The notes beneath the pieces were generated by a model, which worked only from the letters and a program-made list of their open reading frames with translations, was not told where the DNA came from and made no database searches. Below, in pieces: positions 17,888 through 21,619 of a DNA stretch of 50,427 nt. The position numbers and the translations under genes were made by a program. Source of the stretch: Acidobacteriota bacterium (lineage in GTDB: Bacteria > Acidobacteriota > Thermoanaerobaculia > UBA5066 > Gp7-AA6); assembly GCA_038327245.1 (NCBI GenBank), contig JBBQKV010000003.1, forward strand, positions 1 through 50,427, given 5' to 3'. Within the stretch, counting starts at the first letter, position 1, and each line of letters starts with the position of its first letter.

Positions 17888-19306
17888 ATGTCCCCCAAAT
17901 CGACCGCCGTCTTCGCCTGCCAGTCCTGCGGGACCTCCTCGCCCAAGTGGCTCGGCCGCTGTCCGGAGTGCGGGGAGTGGAACTCTTTCGTCGAGGAAGT
18001 CCGGGCGTCTTCGCCGCCGTCGCTGCGGGCCCCGGGCGGGACGGCGCGTCCGCTCTCCGAGGTCGCGGCGCGACCCGACTCCCGGCTCACGACCGGTCTT
18101 CCGGGCCTCGACCGGGTCCTGGGCGGCGGCCTCGTGTCGGGCTCGGTCGTCCTTCTCGGAGGCGAGCCGGGGATCGGGAAGTCGACGCTTCTCCTCCAGG
18201 CTTCCCGCGGAATCGCTGAGACCTCGCGGGAGGTCCTTTATGCCACGGGAGAGGAGTCGGCGGAGCAGGTCCGGCTTCGCGCGGACCGCCTCGGGGTCTC
18301 GACGGAAATGCTCCTCGTGCTGGCGGAGACCGACGTCGATCGGGTCGTGGCGGAAGCGAAGGGCCGGAAGCCGGCCGTCCTGGTCGTGGACTCGATCCAG
18401 GCGGTGCGCCAGGGCTCGCTCGCATCCGCCCCGGGCACGGTGTCGCAGGTGCGCGAGTGTGCCGCGGCTCTGGCCGCGTACGCAAAGGACCACGACGTGC
18501 CGGTCCTCCTCGTCGGTCACGTCACCAAGGACGGGAGCCTCGCCGGCCCCAAGTCCCTCGAGCACCTCGTCGACGCCGTGGTCTCGGTAGACGGGGAGCG
18601 CGGCTCCTCACGGCGGATCCTCCGCGCCGTCAAGAACCGATTTGGTCCGGTCGACGAGATCGCGCTCTACGAGATGACTGCCGCGGGGCTCGAGGAGATC
18701 GCGAACGCTTCGGCGGCGCTCCTGTCGGAACGTCGGGCGAACGTGCCGGGGAGCGCCGTCACGGCGACGCGCGAGGGGACCCGCTCGCTCCTGATCGAGG
18801 TCCAGGCGCTCGTTGGCGGACTCATTGCGGGCTCGCCCCGGCGCGTGGCGATCGGAGTCGACTCCGGACGGCTCGCCTTGCTCCTCGCGGTGCTCGAGCG
18901 CGCGGGAGTGCCGCTCTCCGGCCGCGAGGTCTTCGTTTCGTGCGCGGGGGGCCTGGAGGTGACCGAACCCGCCGCGGACCTCGCGATCGTGGCCGCCCTC
19001 GTTTCGTCGGCCCGGGGCGAGCCCCTTCCCGCCTCTTCCGTCTTTTTCGGGGAGATCGGTCTCCTGGGCGAGGTTCGGAGAGTGTCCGCCGCCCCTTCCC
19101 GGATCCGCGAGGCCGCGGCGCTCGGCTTCGAGAAGGTCTATCTGCCCGCGGGCAACGCGGTCGAAGCGCCGGGCGTTGCCAGCGTCGAGATCCATCCGAT
19201 CGAGCGCGTCGCCGAGCTGGTGCGCGCGTTCGCCAACAGCGGCTCGAACGGCTCGGCGCGCACGGCGAGTCGGAGCGGCGCGGGTCCCGCCGAATCGGGC
19301 GGGTAA
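17888..19306 (+). CDS. radA: DNA repair protein RadA/Sms
   Basis: C4 zinc finger, GGEPGIGKSTLLLQ, KNRFG, Lon-like C-terminal domain GEIGLLGEVR. Confidence 0.97.
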   Translation: MSPKSTAVFACQSCGTSSPKWLGRCPECGEWNSFVEEVRASSPPSLRAPGGTARPLSEVAARPDSRLTTGLPGLDRVLGGGLVSGSVVLLGGEPGIGKSTLLLQASRGIAETSREVLYATGEESAEQVRLRADRLGVSTEMLLVLAETDVDRVVAEAKGRKPAVLVVDSIQAVRQGSLASAPGTVSQVRECAAALAAYAKDHDVPVLLVGHVTKDGSLAGPKSLEHLVDAVVSVDGERGSSRRILRAVKNRFGPVDEIALYEMTAAGLEEIANASAALLSERRANVPGSAVTATREGTRSLLIEVQALVGGLIAGSPRRVAIGVDSGRLALLLAVLERAGVPLSGREVFVSCAGGLEVTEPAADLAIVAALVSSARGEPLPASSVFFGEIGLLGEVRRVSAAPSRIREAAALGFEKVYLPAGNAVEAPGVASVEIHPIERVAELVRAFANSGSNGSARTASRSGAGPAESGG

Positions 19307-19818
19307 GCGGAGAGCAGGGTCAGCGAAGGCTCCTCGGTGGGACGGATCGAGACGTCCTCGATCCGGAGGATCCGTCGCTCGACGACCTGATAGCGCCGCA
19401 GGCCGAAGGGAGTCGTGAGCTCCAGGACGTCCCCGGGCTGCAGGGCCGACGCGAAAGGGGTCCCGACGTCGCGCGCCACCGCAATGACGCAGTTCTTGCC
19501 GTGGCTCTCGTCACCGGGCAGCGCGGTTCCGGGCACATGTGCCGGTCCGAAGGAGAGCGTGTCCGCATCCACCCCTTCGCGCACCGCCGCCTCGAAACCG
19601 AGACGGGGAATCGAGAGGCGGGCGACCGTGTCTCCGGGGCTGAGCCGGCCGAGCGCCGGCGATCCGGCGGGTCTCGCCTCGGCCTGACCGGGGTGGATCG
19701 ATTCCACCGCGCCGGCCACGGCGAAGAGTGCTCCGGCCCCCAGGATCGTGCCGGCGACCGTCACGGCCCGCCGCAGGAAACGAGTGATCAGGAACGGTCC
19801 GCGCGAGAGCAGTCTCAT
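19138..19818 (-). CDS. Class D-like sortase homologue lacking catalytic His and Cys
   Basis: ARLSIPRLG...VREGVDADTLSFGPAHVPGTALPG...NCVIAVARD...LQPGD...YQV...LTLLSAYP...RLAVRA follows the class D sortase pattern; hydrophobic N-terminus. Exact start uncertain. Confidence 0.85.
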   Translation of the reverse strand: MRLLSRGPFLITRFLRRAVTVAGTILGAGALFAVAGAVESIHPGQAEARPAGSPALGRLSPGDTVARLSIPRLGFEAAVREGVDADTLSFGPAHVPGTALPGDESHGKNCVIAVARDVGTPFASALQPGDVLELTTPFGLRRYQVVERRILRIEDVSIRPTEEPSLTLLSAYPPDSAGPAPLRLAVRAEPFEPLLANARTSSATRSIGWISTLATPGASTALPAGR

Positions 19819-19821
19819 ATC

Positions 19822-19863
19822 AAAAGAAAAACGCCCGGCCCGCCGGCGTGGCGGGACCGGGCG
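19822..19863 (-). terminator. Intrinsic terminator between the LPXTG gene and the sortase-like gene
   Basis: CGCCCGG-CCCGCC / GGCGGG-A-CCGGGCG stem followed on the minus strand by TTTTTCTTTT. Confidence 0.85.
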
Positions 19864-19875
19864 AGCGGGAAGACC

Positions 19876-20526
19876 TTACCGGCCCTTGCGGGCGAGAGCG
19901 AGGCCCGCGATCGCGAGGGCAAGACCCGCTGCGGCAACCCGGGGATAGGCCGAGCCGGTCTTCGGAAGAGTCGTGTGCTCCATCTCCATGGCCGGAGCGG
20001 GCGGCGGCGGCGGTGCCTCGACGGCAACCGGAGCCGGGGCCGGCGGCGGCGGGGGCGGCGCGGCCGCATAGGTGGTCGGCGCGGGCGCGATCTCGGCCGC
20101 GACGACCGGGGCGACCGTGATGTTGACCTGCTTGCGGTCGATGACTTCGCCGCTGACGTTCTTGGCCATCACGACGACCTTGTGGGAACCGGCCGGAACG
20201 TTGTCGATGAAGACCACGTTGCTCTCGGATCCCTTGACCGTCTGCTTCAGGTCGTTGTCGAGGAACACGTCGAACGTCGGCTGCGGAAAGTCCTTCTCGC
20301 CGAACTTCGTGCCCTTGCCCTCGCCGAAGTTGCTGGTGTTGTAGGCGATCCCGACGCGGATCTGCGTGCCGGTGATCGTGGCGCCCTCGGCGGGCTCGGT
20401 CAGTTTGAGCTGGAGCGTGTTCGCGGTCGGCCCACCCGTGTTGTATTGCGCGTTCTGCGCCAAAGCGACGCCGGCGAAGGTGCCAACGGCGAGAATGAGG
20501 ATTGCGATTCTGATCGGCTTCGGCAT
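19876..20526 (-). CDS. Secreted Ig-like protein with Pro/Ala linker and C-terminal LPXTG sorting signal
   Basis: Signal peptide ending VALA-Q; beta-sandwich-like core; LPKTG (19954-19968), hydrophobic helix, RKGR tail; SD AAGGAGGG. Confidence 0.88.
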   Translation of the reverse strand: MPKPIRIAILILAVGTFAGVALAQNAQYNTGGPTANTLQLKLTEPAEGATITGTQIRVGIAYNTSNFGEGKGTKFGEKDFPQPTFDVFLDNDLKQTVKGSESNVVFIDNVPAGSHKVVVMAKNVSGEVIDRKQVNITVAPVVAAEIAPAPTTYAAAPPPPPPAPAPVAVEAPPPPPAPAMEMEHTTLPKTGSAYPRVAAAGLALAIAGLALARKGR

Positions 20527-20574
20527 ATTTCCCTCCTTGTCGAGCCCCAGAGGCAGGGCATCACGGGGTGTACC

Positions 20575-20590
20575 ATCAAGGGCCGTGCCA
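20575..20590 (-). promoter_or_regulatory. Sigma54-like -24/-12 promoter of the LPXTG gene
   Basis: Minus strand reads TGGCACG-GCCC-TTGAT against consensus TGGCACG-N4-TTGC[A/T]. Confidence 0.55.
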
Positions 20591-20634: not shown

Positions 20635-21537
20635 TCAGGCCGAAAGGTAGGCCGGGAGAGTCTCTGTCAGGGACTTGTAGGCCTCGAGATATTTCTCCCG
20701 GGTCGTACGGACCACGCCCTCCGGGAGCCGCGGAGCCGGGGGGCGGTGGTCCCAGCCGGTCGAATCCAGCCAGTCCCGGACGAACTGCTTGTCGAAGGAG
20801 ACCGGCGTGCGGCCCGGCGTCCAGGCGCGAGCGTCCCAGTAGCGGGAGGAGTCCGGCGTGAAGGCCTCGTCGATCCAGAGCAGGCGGCCGTCGAGACGCC
20901 CGAACTCGAGCTTCGTGTCGGCGAGCAGCAGGCCGCGCGATTCGGCGAACTGGCGCGCCCGCTCGTACAGGGCGAGAGTCGTGTCCCGGAGGCTCGCGGC
21001 GTCGGCGTCGCCGATCTCGTCGGCCATGCGGGAAAACGGAATGTTCTCGTCATGTCCCCGCTCGCTCTTGGTGGCCGGCGTGAAGATCGGCTCGGGCAGC
21101 CGGTCCGCCTCGACGAGTCCCGGCGGCAGGTGGACCCCGCATATCGCCCCGGTCTTCCGGTACTCCGCCCACCCGGATCCCGCCAGATAGCCGCGCGCGA
21201 CGCATTCGAACGGAATCACCTCGGCCTTGCGCACCACGACCGACCGGCCCTCCAGGAGCGGCGCGTCGGCCTCGAGCGACTCCGGGAACTTCGACACGTC
21301 CGTTTCGATCAGGTGGTTCTCCACGTCCGAGAACTTCTGGAACCAGAAGTTCGAGAGCTGCGTGAGGACCTTCCCCTTGTCGGGCACGCCCGGGGAGAGC
21401 ACGCAGTCATAGGCCGAGATGCGGTCGCTGGCGACGAGGAGCAGGGAGTCGCCCAGGTCGTAGAGCTCCCGGACCTTGCCGCGGCGCAATAGCCGCGCGC
21501 CGGACAGGTGTGTCTCGACGATCGCCGCGGGCGACAT
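20635..21537 (-). CDS. purC: SAICAR synthetase
   Basis: RGKVRELY, SDRISAYD, ECVARGYLAGSGW, DTKLEFG, DEAFTPDSSRYW, DKQFVRDWL. Confidence 0.97.
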   Translation of the reverse strand: MSPAAIVETHLSGARLLRRGKVRELYDLGDSLLLVASDRISAYDCVLSPGVPDKGKVLTQLSNFWFQKFSDVENHLIETDVSKFPESLEADAPLLEGRSVVVRKAEVIPFECVARGYLAGSGWAEYRKTGAICGVHLPPGLVEADRLPEPIFTPATKSERGHDENIPFSRMADEIGDADAASLRDTTLALYERARQFAESRGLLLADTKLEFGRLDGRLLWIDEAFTPDSSRYWDARAWTPGRTPVSFDKQFVRDWLDSTGWDHRPPAPRLPEGVVRTTREKYLEAYKSLTETLPAYLSA

Positions 21538-21619
21538 GGCCCGGGAGACTAGCACAGCCTCCGGCGGCGGGCGTGCGACTGCGCCGGGGGCGGTGCCCGC
21601 TCTGCTATCTTGTCTTTCG

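What the first reader, a model, noticed from the sequence alone, without database searches (positions are those of the whole stretch)
19138..20590. Catalytically dead sortase paired with an intact LPKTG substrate in a diderm bacterium
Seen: 19876-20526 encodes a signal peptide, an Ig-like domain, a Pro/Ala linker and a complete sorting signal (LPKTG, hydrophobic helix, RKGR). The next gene on the same strand follows the class D sortase pattern along its length. However, it reads NCVIAVARD where N.VIAGHRD is expected (Ala codon 19474-19476) and LTLLSAYP where LTLITCYP is expected (Ala codon 19306-19308); the Arg (PLRLAVRA) is kept. Both changes need several base substitutions and the frame is intact, so sequencing error is unlikely. 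Established: sortases need the His-Cys-Arg triad, and sortase/LPXTG pairs occur in some diderms but are poorly understood. Inference: a pseudo-sortase that binds LPXTG tails as a chaperone, adaptor, inhibitor or partner of an active sortase encoded elsewhere. This is my best candidate for an undescribed system.
Basis: partly seen in the sequence, partly recalled or inferred. Interest (0 to 1): 0.85.

Follow-up and report, generated by a model that had tools for sequence, protein, structure and literature searches.

The report
Conserved catalytically dead sortase family
A soil/sediment acidobacterium carries a well-conserved sortase look-alike that has lost the two residues needed for catalysis, sits next to the one LPXTG-tagged surface protein of the genome, and coexists with an intact sortase elsewhere, which points to a so far undescribed non-catalytic helper in protein sorting.

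Summary
ORF 19138-19818 (-) has a sortase domain (Pfam 45.2 bits, cut-off 26.6) and a sortase fold, with Ala at the His position and Ala at the Cys position. The Arg is kept. ORF 19876-20526 (-) is a signal peptide, an Ig/FN3-like sandwich, a Pro/Ala linker and LPKTG, a helix and RKGR.

This is not a decaying gene:
- 95 of 111 homologues lack both His and Cys, and all keep Arg.
- The dead copies form one clade (support 100/99).
- dN/dS is about 0.07-0.27, similar to active relatives.
- Synteny pepA-purC-substrate-dead sortase-radA is conserved, with the substrate adjacent in 27 of 29 distinct loci.

In a sample of 151 genomes of the class, 10 carry the dead copy. All 10 belong to one family, and each also has a high-scoring sortase match. 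In the 8 fetched, this is an intact "orphan" sortase, usually beside an L,D-transpeptidase and an M23 peptidase. In the window's own genome that orphan is cut by a contig end. A sister genus pairs the same substrate family with an active sortase.

Best reading: a membrane-anchored pseudo-sortase that no longer cleaves and serves as a receptor or adaptor for the LPXTG protein, while the orphan sortase does the chemistry. Binding was not shown. I found no description of this in print.

The parts
19138..19818 (-). Pseudo-sortase ORF (226 aa): N-terminal membrane helix (aa 8-39), linker, sortase barrel (aa 60-190), unstructured tail (aa 191-226)
   Evidence: ORF. Pfam PF04203 scores 45.2 bits. AF2 gives pLDDT 90-96 over residues 60-190, a helix at 8-39 and a tail below 50. 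Foldseek matches sortases at probability 1.00.
19474..19476 (-). Ala115 codon (GCG) at the catalytic His position
   Evidence: In the 95 dead homologues this position reads A 89, V 2, P 2, S 1, G 1. In the 16 active homologues it reads H 16.
19306..19308 (-). Ala171 codon (GCT) at the catalytic Cys position of TLxTC. The radA stop TAA lies antisense across codons 171-172.
   Evidence: In the 95 dead homologues this position reads P 71, A 17, S 3, T 2, F 2. In the 16 active homologues it reads C 16.
19270..19272 (-). Arg183 codon, the conserved sortase Arg, kept
   Evidence: Arg is present in 95 of 95 dead and 16 of 16 active homologues, and in 81 of 81 loci.
19138..19248 (-). Tail of the sortase ORF that runs antisense through the conserved 3' part of radA. 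Probably an open frame without function.
   Evidence: pLDDT is below 50. Relative L130 has a stop at codon 194, and homologues of 189-194 aa exist. The RadA model ends at aa 444 of 472.
19821..19862 (-). GC-rich hairpin (19833-19862, 12 pairs with one bulge) followed by the run GUUUUUCUUUUG, ending 2 nt before the sortase ATG. Terminator- or attenuator-like, between the substrate and pseudo-sortase genes.
   Evidence: RNA fold. A 9-13 bp GC hairpin follows the substrate stop in all 26 dead loci folded, and the U-run is clear only in the window's own subclade. The simple terminator scan did not report it.
19876..20526 (-). Substrate gene (216 aa): signal peptide, Ig/FN3-like sandwich, Pro/Ala linker, LPKTG sorting signal
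   Evidence: In the 29-sequence family alignment, P188 and T190 of the motif are invariant.
20110..20409 (-). Ig/FN3-like beta-sandwich domain (aa 40-139); no Pfam family
   Evidence: AF2 strands run from 40 to 139 at pLDDT about 90-97. Foldseek matches 9kvu and 3pe9. Pfam gives nothing above cut-off.
19879..19968 (-). Sorting signal: LPKTG (19954-19968), helix aa 195-215, RKGR (19879-19890)
   Evidence: Gram_pos_anchor scores 18.4 bits (cut-off 20).
17888..19306 (+). radA, convergent, overlapping the sortase ORF by 169 bp (context, conserved neighbour)
   Evidence: TIGR00416 scores 527.7 bits. radA is present in 33 of 35 dead-locus rows.
20635..21555 (-). purC (SAICAR synthetase), conserved upstream neighbour (context)
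   Evidence: PF01259 scores 241.6 bits. purC is present in 32 of 35 dead-locus rows.

Best explanation
ORF 19138-19818 encodes a membrane-anchored, periplasm-facing protein with a sortase fold that cannot do sortase chemistry. The His that activates the nucleophile and the Cys that forms the thioacyl intermediate are both replaced.

Shown: it belongs to one old, diversified clade of such proteins in one family of Thermoanaerobaculia (Acidobacteriota).

Inferred origin: the clade arose from a sortase dedicated to a neighbouring LPXTG protein. That arrangement still exists, with an active enzyme, in a sister genus. Every dead-copy genome I fetched also carries an intact 'orphan' sortase with no substrate gene beside it, usually next to an L,D-transpeptidase and an M23 peptidase.

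Inferred mechanism: the pseudo-sortase keeps the membrane anchor, the barrel and the groove motifs (LT.., YP.D, GPAP.R with invariant Arg). It acts as a non-catalytic receptor or adaptor for the sorting signal of the co-encoded Ig-like protein in the inner membrane. It holds or presents that protein, and the orphan sortase does the cleavage and transfer, probably to peptidoglycan. A hairpin between the two genes would keep the pseudo-sortase at a much lower level than the substrate.

Shown: fold, loss of the catalytic residues, one clade, selection, synteny, and co-occurrence with an active paralogue. Inferred: binding of the signal, hand-over to the orphan sortase, and the acceptor.
For: 1. 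Sortase domain and fold.
- Pfam 45.2 bits against a cut-off of 26.6.
- A profile of the family hits B. anthracis SrtD 2ln7 at 3.9e-26.
- AF2 pLDDT is 90-96 over residues 60-190.
- Foldseek matches sortases at probability 1.00.

2. Loss of the catalytic residues is a family trait.
- 95 of 111 homologues lack both His and Cys, and all 111 keep Arg.
- 26 of the 80 fetched genome loci are dead.
- 19 of the best 150 cluster representatives are dead, including 16 of the top 17.

3. One origin.
- With the two catalytic columns left out, the dead rows form one side of a branch: 29 of 29 at SH-aLRT 97, and 15 of 15 at 100/99 with a stem of 0.71.

4. Purifying selection.
- Close dead pairs give omega 0.00-0.25.
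- The window's own copy against its three nearest DNA relatives gives 0.25-0.27 over codons 60-170.
- Close active pairs give 0.04-0.37.

5. Synteny.
- The substrate homologue is adjacent in 27 of 29 distinct dead loci (33 of 35 rows). radA is present in 33 of 35 rows and purC in 32 of 35.
- The substrate's P and T of [LM]PxT[GA] are invariant in 29 of 29 sequences.

6. Active partner.
- In a sample of 151 genomes of the class, 10 carry a dead copy (at least 213 bits; the next best match is 144.7). Each of the 10 also has at least one high-scoring sortase match.
- The 8 fetched genomes each have an H/C/R-intact paralogue with no LPXTG ORF within about 5 kb.
- Across the 14 orphan-clade loci, Bax1-I/YccA is a neighbour in 14, TPR in 13, M23 in 13 and YkuD in 12.
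- The own genome holds residues 23-77 of this orphan at the end of contig C91. Its flanks lie on C117 and C99.

7. Ancestral-like state.
- In 6 of 6 loci of genus g3, the substrate family sits directly upstream of an active sortase.

8. Single client.
- A motif scan of the own genome (84.6% complete) finds only this one clean LPXTG signal.
Against: - No test of binding succeeded. The complex prediction gave no verdict, so binding rests on inference.
- Two dead loci (L018, L020) lack the adjacent substrate gene yet remain under selection (omega 0.12). Their genomes hold only a paralogous substrate elsewhere. The tie to the neighbouring gene is therefore not obligatory.
- The hairpin and the lack of a Shine-Dalgarno sequence before the pseudo-sortase argue against a one-to-one chaperone.
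- All dead-copy genomes in the sample belong to one family. Co-occurrence with the orphan sortase may therefore be a single historical event and not repeated evidence.
- The own genome's orphan sortase is seen only as a 55-residue fragment. Its catalytic domain was not read.
- One of the 10 sampled dead-copy genomes (G004) is unpublished and its DNA was not fetched.
Confidence: 0.5

Rival explanations
1. Regulatory partner of the enzyme ('prozyme' type). The pseudo-sortase binds the orphan active sortase, not the substrate, and switches it on or off or positions it. This would resemble dead paralogues that activate trypanosome enzymes, or degenerate LytM factors that activate amidases. Both analogies are recalled or taken from abstracts listed.
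For: - A dead copy and a further high-scoring sortase match co-occur in 10 of 10 sampled genomes, and the orphan was verified in the 8 fetched.
- Dead and orphan clades group together with weak support (81/79), as expected for duplicates.
- The hairpin suggests low expression relative to the substrate.
- Dead copies persist under selection without an adjacent substrate in L018 and L020.
Against: - Sortases are not known to need partners (recalled).
- The genes are not linked.
- The conserved surface in the dead clade includes the groove motifs and the Arg that contact the sorting signal in active sortases (the contact itself is recalled from the structural literature).
- No interaction was tested here.
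Confidence: 0.15
2. Retention factor or anti-sortase. It occupies the LPXTG signal so that the Ig-like protein stays anchored in the inner membrane by its C-terminal helix, or is released only under some condition. This would resemble iRhom pseudoproteases that hold clients of rhomboids (abstract of PMC3149277, listed).
For: - The substrate's C-terminal helix and basic tail are unusually conserved. G201, L204 and G208 are invariant in 29 of 29 sequences. That is more than a throw-away anchor would need.
- The Arg and the groove motifs are kept.
Against: - A blocker would have to be about as abundant as its client. The hairpin and the missing ribosome site suggest the opposite.
- The invariant P and T of the motif are equally expected if the signal is cleaved.
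Confidence: 0.12
3. It binds the second substrate of the sortase reaction, or something new, and not the sorting signal. Candidates are the acceptor (a peptidoglycan stem peptide or lipid II) or another envelope ligand. The fold would then be reused as a binding module.
For: - The long stem branch (0.59-0.71) at the origin of the clade fits a change of function.
- New clade-specific features are present. Asp175 occurs in 93 of 95, and a 3-residue insertion is seen in the PGEESxxK loop.
- The clade survives without the adjacent substrate in two loci.
Against: - Synteny with the LPXTG gene holds in 27 of 29 loci.
- There is no direct evidence for any ligand.
Confidence: 0.1
4. It is still an enzyme, using a non-canonical nucleophile.
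For: - Some residues could in principle serve. His94 is invariant, Thr167 occurs in 91 of 95, and position 60 is Ser or Cys in 84 of 95.
Against: - The nucleophile position is Pro in 71 of 95.
- Cys110 occurs in 2 of 95.
- Ser/Cys60 is confined to one subclade, 19 of 29 loci.
- His94 and Thr167 are equally conserved in active relatives, so they are not replacements.
- No Cys column is conserved across the clade.
Confidence: 0.05
5. A decaying relic: a dead gene not yet lost.
For: - The window's own copy has a long end branch (0.42-0.50).
- It carries Ala at the nearly invariant Gly93.
Against: - Frames are intact in all 29 distinct loci.
- The clade spans at least four genera.
- Omega is 0.07-0.27, including the window's own lineage.
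- 17 residues are invariant across 41 diverse members.
Confidence: 0.03

Closest known systems
Class D sortases (e.g. B. anthracis SrtD, PDB 2ln7; C. perfringens SrtD, 4d70)
   Same: Best sequence match among solved structures (2ln7 at 3.9e-26, 4d70 at 5.8e-24). Same barrel. N-terminal membrane anchor. The motif frame xxVIAxHRD / LTLxTCYP / R is recognisable.
   Different: His and Cys are replaced. The NCBIfam class D score is 56.5 against a cut-off of 165. The host is a diderm.
Class GN ('marine') sortase with a single dedicated substrate in Gram-negative bacteria (TIGR03784; Comfort and Clubb 2004 as cited in PMC8225981, passages read)
   Same: A diderm host, one sortase-like gene beside one LPXTG-type substrate gene, and the best NCBIfam hit (58.8 bits).
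   Different: The score is far below the cut-off of 158.25. The catalytic residues are absent here. The substrate is a small Ig-like protein. That the class GN substrate has a different domain is recalled, not tested.
Active acidobacterial sortases paired with an LPxT[GA] protein
   Same: Nearest relatives (35-47% identity). Same gene order with the substrate upstream. In genus g3 the same substrate family is present.
   Different: They keep His, Cys and Arg. None of them appears to be characterised: one search found no paper on acidobacterial sortases beyond one general essay.
Pseudoenzymes that partner an active paralogue or hold its clients (iRhoms, trypanosome prozymes)
   Same: Conserved loss of catalytic residues, retained fold, and coexistence with an active paralogue (abstracts listed).
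   Different: Unrelated folds and organisms. This is an analogy of logic only.

Membership tests
Sortase superfamily (Pfam PF04203, peptidase C60 fold) | Sequence match to the sortase domain above the curated cut-off | tested here: met
   45.2 bits against 26.6, residues 68-190, model positions 1-124 of 125.
Sortase superfamily (Pfam PF04203, peptidase C60 fold) | Eight-stranded sortase barrel | tested here: met
   AF2 pLDDT 90-96 over residues 60-190. Foldseek probability 1.00 to sortases A, C, D and E, TM by target 0.55-0.79.
Sortase enzymes (cysteine transpeptidases) | Catalytic His at the end of beta-4 (xHRD) | tested here: not met
   Ala115 in the window. In the 95 dead homologues the position reads A 89, V 2, P 2, S 1, G 1.
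Sortase enzymes (cysteine transpeptidases) | Catalytic Cys in TLxTC | tested here: not met
   Ala171 in the window. In the 95 dead homologues the position reads P 71, A 17, S 3, T 2, F 2.
Sortase enzymes (cysteine transpeptidases) | Conserved Arg on beta-8 | tested here: met
   Arg183, present in 95 of 95.
Sortase enzymes (cysteine transpeptidases) | Cleavage of the LPXTG motif and transpeptidation | not testable with these tools
   This needs an enzyme assay.
Class D sortase (NCBIfam NF033746) and class GN sortase (TIGR03784) | Score above the curated class cut-off | tested here: not met
   Class D 56.5 against 165. Class GN 58.8 against 158.25. SrtD LPxTATN-specific 56.3 against 140.
LPXTG sorting signal (substrate 19876-20526) | LPXTG-type pentapeptide, hydrophobic stretch and basic tail at the C-terminus | tested here: met
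   LPKTG, then a helix at 195-215, then RKGR. P and T are invariant in 29 of 29 relatives.
LPXTG sorting signal (substrate 19876-20526) | Match to the curated anchor models above cut-off | tested here: inconclusive
   PF00746 scores 18.4 against 20, and TIGR01167 scores 13.6 against 15.9. 24 of 29 family members match PF00746 at E up to 1, with a best value of 7.6e-5.
Pseudoenzyme (working definition: conserved homologue of an enzyme lacking catalytic residues, under selection) | Loss shared by a clade, intact frames, dN/dS well below 1 | tested here: met
   One clade at 100/99. Omega 0.00-0.27 for close pairs.
Pseudoenzyme (working definition) | A demonstrated non-catalytic function | not testable with these tools
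   The complex job gave no verdict. This needs a binding or genetic test.

The most novel reading that the evidence does not exclude
A three-part sorting pathway in a diderm. A pseudo-sortase encoded next to the client acts as the specific receptor for its LPXTG tail in the inner membrane. It hands the client to a separately encoded, substrate-less sortase that sits with peptidoglycan cross-linking and trimming enzymes. Recognition and catalysis, normally united in one sortase, would then be split between two paralogues.
Probability: 0.3. Interest if true: 0.85.

Novelty: new variant of a known kind. Interest (0 to 1): 0.7.

Why it matters
Sortases are textbook single-enzyme sorting machines and widely used protein-ligation tools. 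Their role in bacteria with an outer membrane is essentially unexplored. Here there is a naturally occurring, long-conserved sortase without His and Cys, tied to one LPXTG client and to an intact paralogue.

If the reading holds, it would be the first pseudoenzyme of this family that I could find any trace of. Five literature searches found none.

It gives a concrete, small and expressible system: three proteins of about 190-240 residues. That system could answer three questions:
- how sorting signals are recognised apart from catalysis;
- what diderm sortases attach their clients to;
- whether recognition and chemistry can be split between paralogues.

A natural, non-cleaving LPXTG binder would also be of practical interest.

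Tried and rejected
- **Complex prediction of the pseudo-sortase (aa 1-195, alignment A1) with the substrate tail (aa 170-216, alignment A2).** No verdict: ipSAE was 0.00 in two runs and the controls were not run. This counts neither for nor against binding.

- **RNA evidence.**
  - 6 RNA-labelled runs hold 6-8% of the sampled words.
  - 4 of them (3 studies) were laid. Contigs 88-100% alike cover only the substrate gene (19817-20526).
  - Contigs end at 19817 (X17) and 19833 (X15; X15 has a loose end there).
  - No contig covers the sortase ORF or purC.
  - These are contigs of relatives in RNA libraries that may contain DNA, and the runs were found through this stretch. I therefore treat the missing cover of the sortase gene as no evidence. 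The ends at the hairpin are at most a weak hint.

- **Simple terminator scan.** It found nothing (0 sites). The hairpin has a bulge and was seen only by folding.

- **Alternative nucleophiles.** Cys110 occurs in 2 of 95, and Ser/Cys60 is confined to one subclade. Both were rejected as clade-wide catalytic residues.

- **'The genome has only the dead sortase'.** One search shows one Pfam hit. I rejected this reading after searches showed the orphan sortase cut by a contig end. The genome is 84.6% complete in 236 contigs.

- **Automated neighbour rule.** It missed the substrate in L016, L024 and L090 because of overlapping stop-to-stop frames. BLAST finds it there.

- **Correction to my notebook.** It once says 27 of 80 genome loci are dead. 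The correct count is 26 of 80.

- **Duplicate rows.** Six of the 35 dead-locus rows are the same contigs reached by two routes, and one row is the window itself. Counting the window, 29 distinct loci remain.

- **dS saturation.** dS saturates for distant pairs, so only close pairs are quoted. The medians over all pairs (0.42 dead, 0.48 active) are not meaningful.

- **Sister group of the dead clade.** Whether it is the orphan sortases or the g3 substrate-adjacent sortases is unresolved (81/79).

- **No family for the substrate domain.** Pfam has none for the substrate's N-terminal domain. Foldseek gives only generic FN3/Ig-like matches.

- **The search of earlier findings was closed.** No earlier findings were seen.

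- **Supplementary files of papers were not opened.** Of the papers:
  - I read passages of PMC8225981.
  - All other papers are known to me only from search listings and the starts of their abstracts.
  - Comfort and Clubb 2004 is known only as cited in PMC8225981.

Full report
**What is in the sequence.**
Two ORFs lie head to tail on the minus strand.

The substrate gene is at 19876-20526 and encodes 216 aa.
- It starts after a strong AAGGAGG ribosome site.
- It encodes a signal peptide and a beta-sandwich at aa 40-139. AF2 gives pLDDT about 90-97 there, and the nearest folds are FN3/Ig-like modules such as 3pe9.
- It continues with a disordered Pro/Ala linker, LPKTG, a C-terminal helix and RKGR.

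The sortase-like ORF follows 57 bases downstream, at 19138-19818, and encodes 226 aa.
- It passes Pfam's sortase model at 45.2 bits against a cut-off of 26.6.
- It folds as a sortase barrel behind an N-terminal membrane helix.
- It reads Ala at the His position (codon 19474-19476) and Ala at the Cys position (19306-19308). The Arg is kept (19270-19272).
- All class-level NCBIfam models fall far below their cut-offs. Class GN scores 58.8 and class D 56.5.
- The closest solved relative by sequence is B. anthracis SrtD.

The genome has BamA and LptD. The nearest named relatives are Thermoanaerobaculia MAGs of the Acidobacteriota, so the host is a diderm.

**It is a family, not an accident.**
- Of 111 homologues found among 5.8 billion proteins, the 95 closest lack both His and Cys. 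These range from 37% to 100% identity by the alignment. The remaining 16, at 27-36% identity, have both.
- Arg is present in all 111.
- In the dead set, the His position reads A 89, V 2, P 2, S 1, G 1. The Cys position reads P 71, A 17, S 3, T 2, F 2.
- Around these positions the sequence is strongly conserved. Seventeen residues are invariant across 41 diverse members, including GPAP.R. R116, T167, Y172 and D175 are nearly invariant.
- A profile of the dead set was run against 1.84 billion cluster representatives. Sixteen of the top 17 hits (150 bits or more) are dead and one is partial. Below that the hits turn into active sortases. Among the best 150 there are 19 dead, 130 active and 1 partial.
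- In trees built without the two catalytic columns, the dead sequences form one clade. The quick tree gives 29 of 29 rows at SH-aLRT 97. The careful tree gives 15 of 15 rows at 100/99.
- The clade sits on a long stem of 0.59-0.71 changes per site.
- It lies inside a well-supported group (100/98) of sortases from the same bacterial family.

**It is under selection.**
- Nei-Gojobori estimates were made over codons 60-170, which avoids the part that overlaps radA.
- Close dead pairs give omega 0.00, 0.07, 0.09, 0.12, 0.12, 0.15, 0.16, 0.17, 0.17, 0.20 and 0.25.
- Close active pairs give 0.04-0.37.
- The window's own copy has a long terminal branch. Against its three nearest DNA relatives (71-77% identity) it still gives 0.25-0.27.
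- More distant pairs are saturated and are not used.

**The neighbourhood is fixed.**
- The order pepA, purC, substrate, dead sortase, then convergent radA recurs across the clade.
- The substrate homologue is present in 33 of 35 rows, which is 27 of 29 distinct loci. radA is present in 33 of 35 rows and purC in 32 of 35.
- The substrate's sandwich domain is 57-92% identical across these loci. That is more conserved than the pseudo-sortase itself.
- Its sorting signal is retained everywhere. P and T of [LM]PxT[GA] are invariant in 29 of 29 sequences. Three helix positions, G201, L204 and G208, are also invariant.
- Two related loci (L018, L020) have lost the substrate gene between purC and the dead sortase.
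  - Their genomes carry a paralogous substrate with LPKTA elsewhere, and two to three high-scoring sortases.
  - The two dead copies still give omega 0.12.

**An active partner exists.**
- 151 genomes of the class were sampled, and 10 carry a dead copy. Their profile scores are 213 bits or more, and the next best match is 144.7.
- All 10 belong to one family (genera g1, g2, g4 and g5). Each also has at least one high-scoring Pfam sortase match.
- I fetched 8 of these genomes. Each has a paralogue with His, Cys and Arg intact, reading NCVIT[AG]HRD ... PRLTLITCYPF. None has an LPXTG-type ORF within about 5 kb.
- This 'orphan' clade has its own fixed neighbourhood. Of 14 loci:
  - Bax1-I/YccA is present in 14;
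  - a TPR protein in 13;
  - an M23 peptidase in 13;
  - an L,D-transpeptidase (YkuD plus a peptidoglycan-binding domain) in 12.
- The window's own genome shows only one Pfam sortase hit, the dead one. This is an assembly effect.
  - The orphan's neighbourhood is split over three contig ends.
  - Residues 23-77 of the orphan are encoded at the very end of contig C91.
  - The catalytic domain lies in the gap and was not read.
- A motif scan of the own genome finds a single clean LPXTG signal, the neighbour of the dead sortase. In this genome, as far as it is assembled (84.6% complete), the orphan's only visible client is that protein.

**Where it came from.**
- In a sister genus of the same family (g3), none of 7 sampled genomes scores above 145 bits with the dead profile.
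- In 6 of 6 fetched g3 loci, the same substrate family (38-48% identity) sits directly upstream of an active sortase. Those loci are not next to purC or radA.
- One dead-copy genome (G064) has all three arrangements: dead copy plus substrate, active copy plus a paralogous substrate, and the orphan.
- Across other Acidobacteriota, active sortases with an upstream LPxT[GA] protein are common. In one search, 32 of 66 active rows meet this by an automated rule.
- The simplest history is as follows. A dedicated sortase-substrate pair existed. A duplication followed. The copy beside the substrate lost its catalytic residues, and a copy elsewhere kept them.
- The tree cannot say whether the dead clade is closer to the orphan or to the g3 type (81/79).

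**How it most likely works.**
- Without Cys there can be no thioacyl intermediate. No alternative nucleophile is conserved.
  - Cys110 occurs in 2 of 95.
  - Ser/Cys60 occurs in one subclade only.
  - His94 and Thr167 are equally conserved in active relatives.
- What is kept is the membrane anchor, the barrel, and the strands and loop that carry Thr167, Tyr172-Pro173 and Gly178-Pro-Ala-Pro-x-Arg183.
- In solved sortases these elements line the groove for the sorting signal, and the Arg contacts it. This is recalled from the structural literature and was not tested here.
- I therefore take the protein to be a non-catalytic receptor or adaptor for the sorting signal of its neighbour, working with the orphan sortase.
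- The orphan's neighbours suggest peptidoglycan as the acceptor.
- A GC-rich hairpin follows the substrate stop in all 26 dead loci folded. In the window's subclade it carries a U-run that ends 2 nt before the sortase ATG. The sortase gene has no ribosome site. The pseudo-sortase should therefore be made in much smaller amounts than its client. This fits a turnover role better than a one-to-one chaperone or blocker.
- These last steps are inference. The rivals are a partner of the enzyme, a retention factor, a binder of the acceptor, a cryptic enzyme and a relic. They are listed separately with their odds.

**What failed or does not count.**
- The complex prediction gave no verdict.
- Contigs from four RNA libraries cover the substrate gene only. 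By the tool's own rules, this cannot be used as evidence about the sortase gene.

**Known or new.**
- Five full-text searches found no natural, conserved, catalytically dead sortase. They also found no work on acidobacterial sortases.
- A 2021 review states only that some Gram-negative bacteria carry one sortase-like gene with one potential substrate, and that these are not well characterised (passages of PMC8225981).
- The library does not hold most subscription journals, so 'not in print' is limited to what was searched.
- I rate this as a new variant of a known kind: the sortase fold and LPXTG sorting are known, and the conserved pseudoenzyme with a split of roles is not.
- Interest is 0.7. 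The finding is surprising to a specialist and directly testable with three small proteins, but the function is still inferred and the host is uncultured.

Noticed in passing
window 19138-19306: The pseudo-sortase ORF and radA converge and overlap by 169 bp. Each ORF's unconserved tail runs antisense through the other's conserved end, and the radA stop (TAA) is antisense to sortase codons 171-172. The apparent conservation of the sortase tail (aa 191-226) is probably imposed by radA. The tail has low dS (0.18-0.41), relative L130 has a stop at codon 194, and forms of 189-194 aa exist.
   Followed up: partly
window 19821-19862; loci L002-L031, L084-L091: A GC hairpin directly after the substrate stop is present in all 26 dead loci folded. 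The stem sequence varies while pairing is kept. A U-run is clear only in the window's own subclade.
   Followed up: partly
proteins P0242 and P0220: Two other representatives depart from the triad outside the dead clade. P0242 has His to Leu and Cys to Pro in an otherwise active-type sequence (YPFDHVGSAPKRF). P0220 has His to Asn with Cys kept. These may be independent losses.
   Followed up: no
L030:5125-5754 and L030:6528-7151: One Thermoanaerobaculia locus has two paralogous copies of the substrate gene, one on each side of the dead sortase. One carries LPTTA and the other LPKTA.
   Followed up: no
L008:1044-2489, L009:2010-2495: Further ORFs with LPGSA or LPKTA sorting signals lie a few kb upstream of the dead-sortase locus in two relatives. 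Some genomes therefore have more than one client.
   Followed up: no
window 19876-20526 (runs X15, X16, X17, X19): Contigs from four soil RNA libraries of three studies, 88-100% alike, cover the substrate gene of this lineage or close relatives. This suggests the gene is well represented in such libraries, although DNA carry-over cannot be excluded.
   Followed up: partly
window 20110-20409 and alignment A2: The substrate's sandwich domain belongs to no Pfam family. It has a set of invariant polar residues (E44, D90, N103, H115, E127, D130, R131 in 29 of 29 sequences) that might form a ligand or metal site.
   Followed up: no
L093:2399-4870 and L101:1847-4870: A third sortase type in the same bacterial family (GPGHLDGSARPG ... 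TCYPF) lies directly after large proteins of 823 and 1007 aa that end in MPSTA or MPQTA.
   Followed up: no
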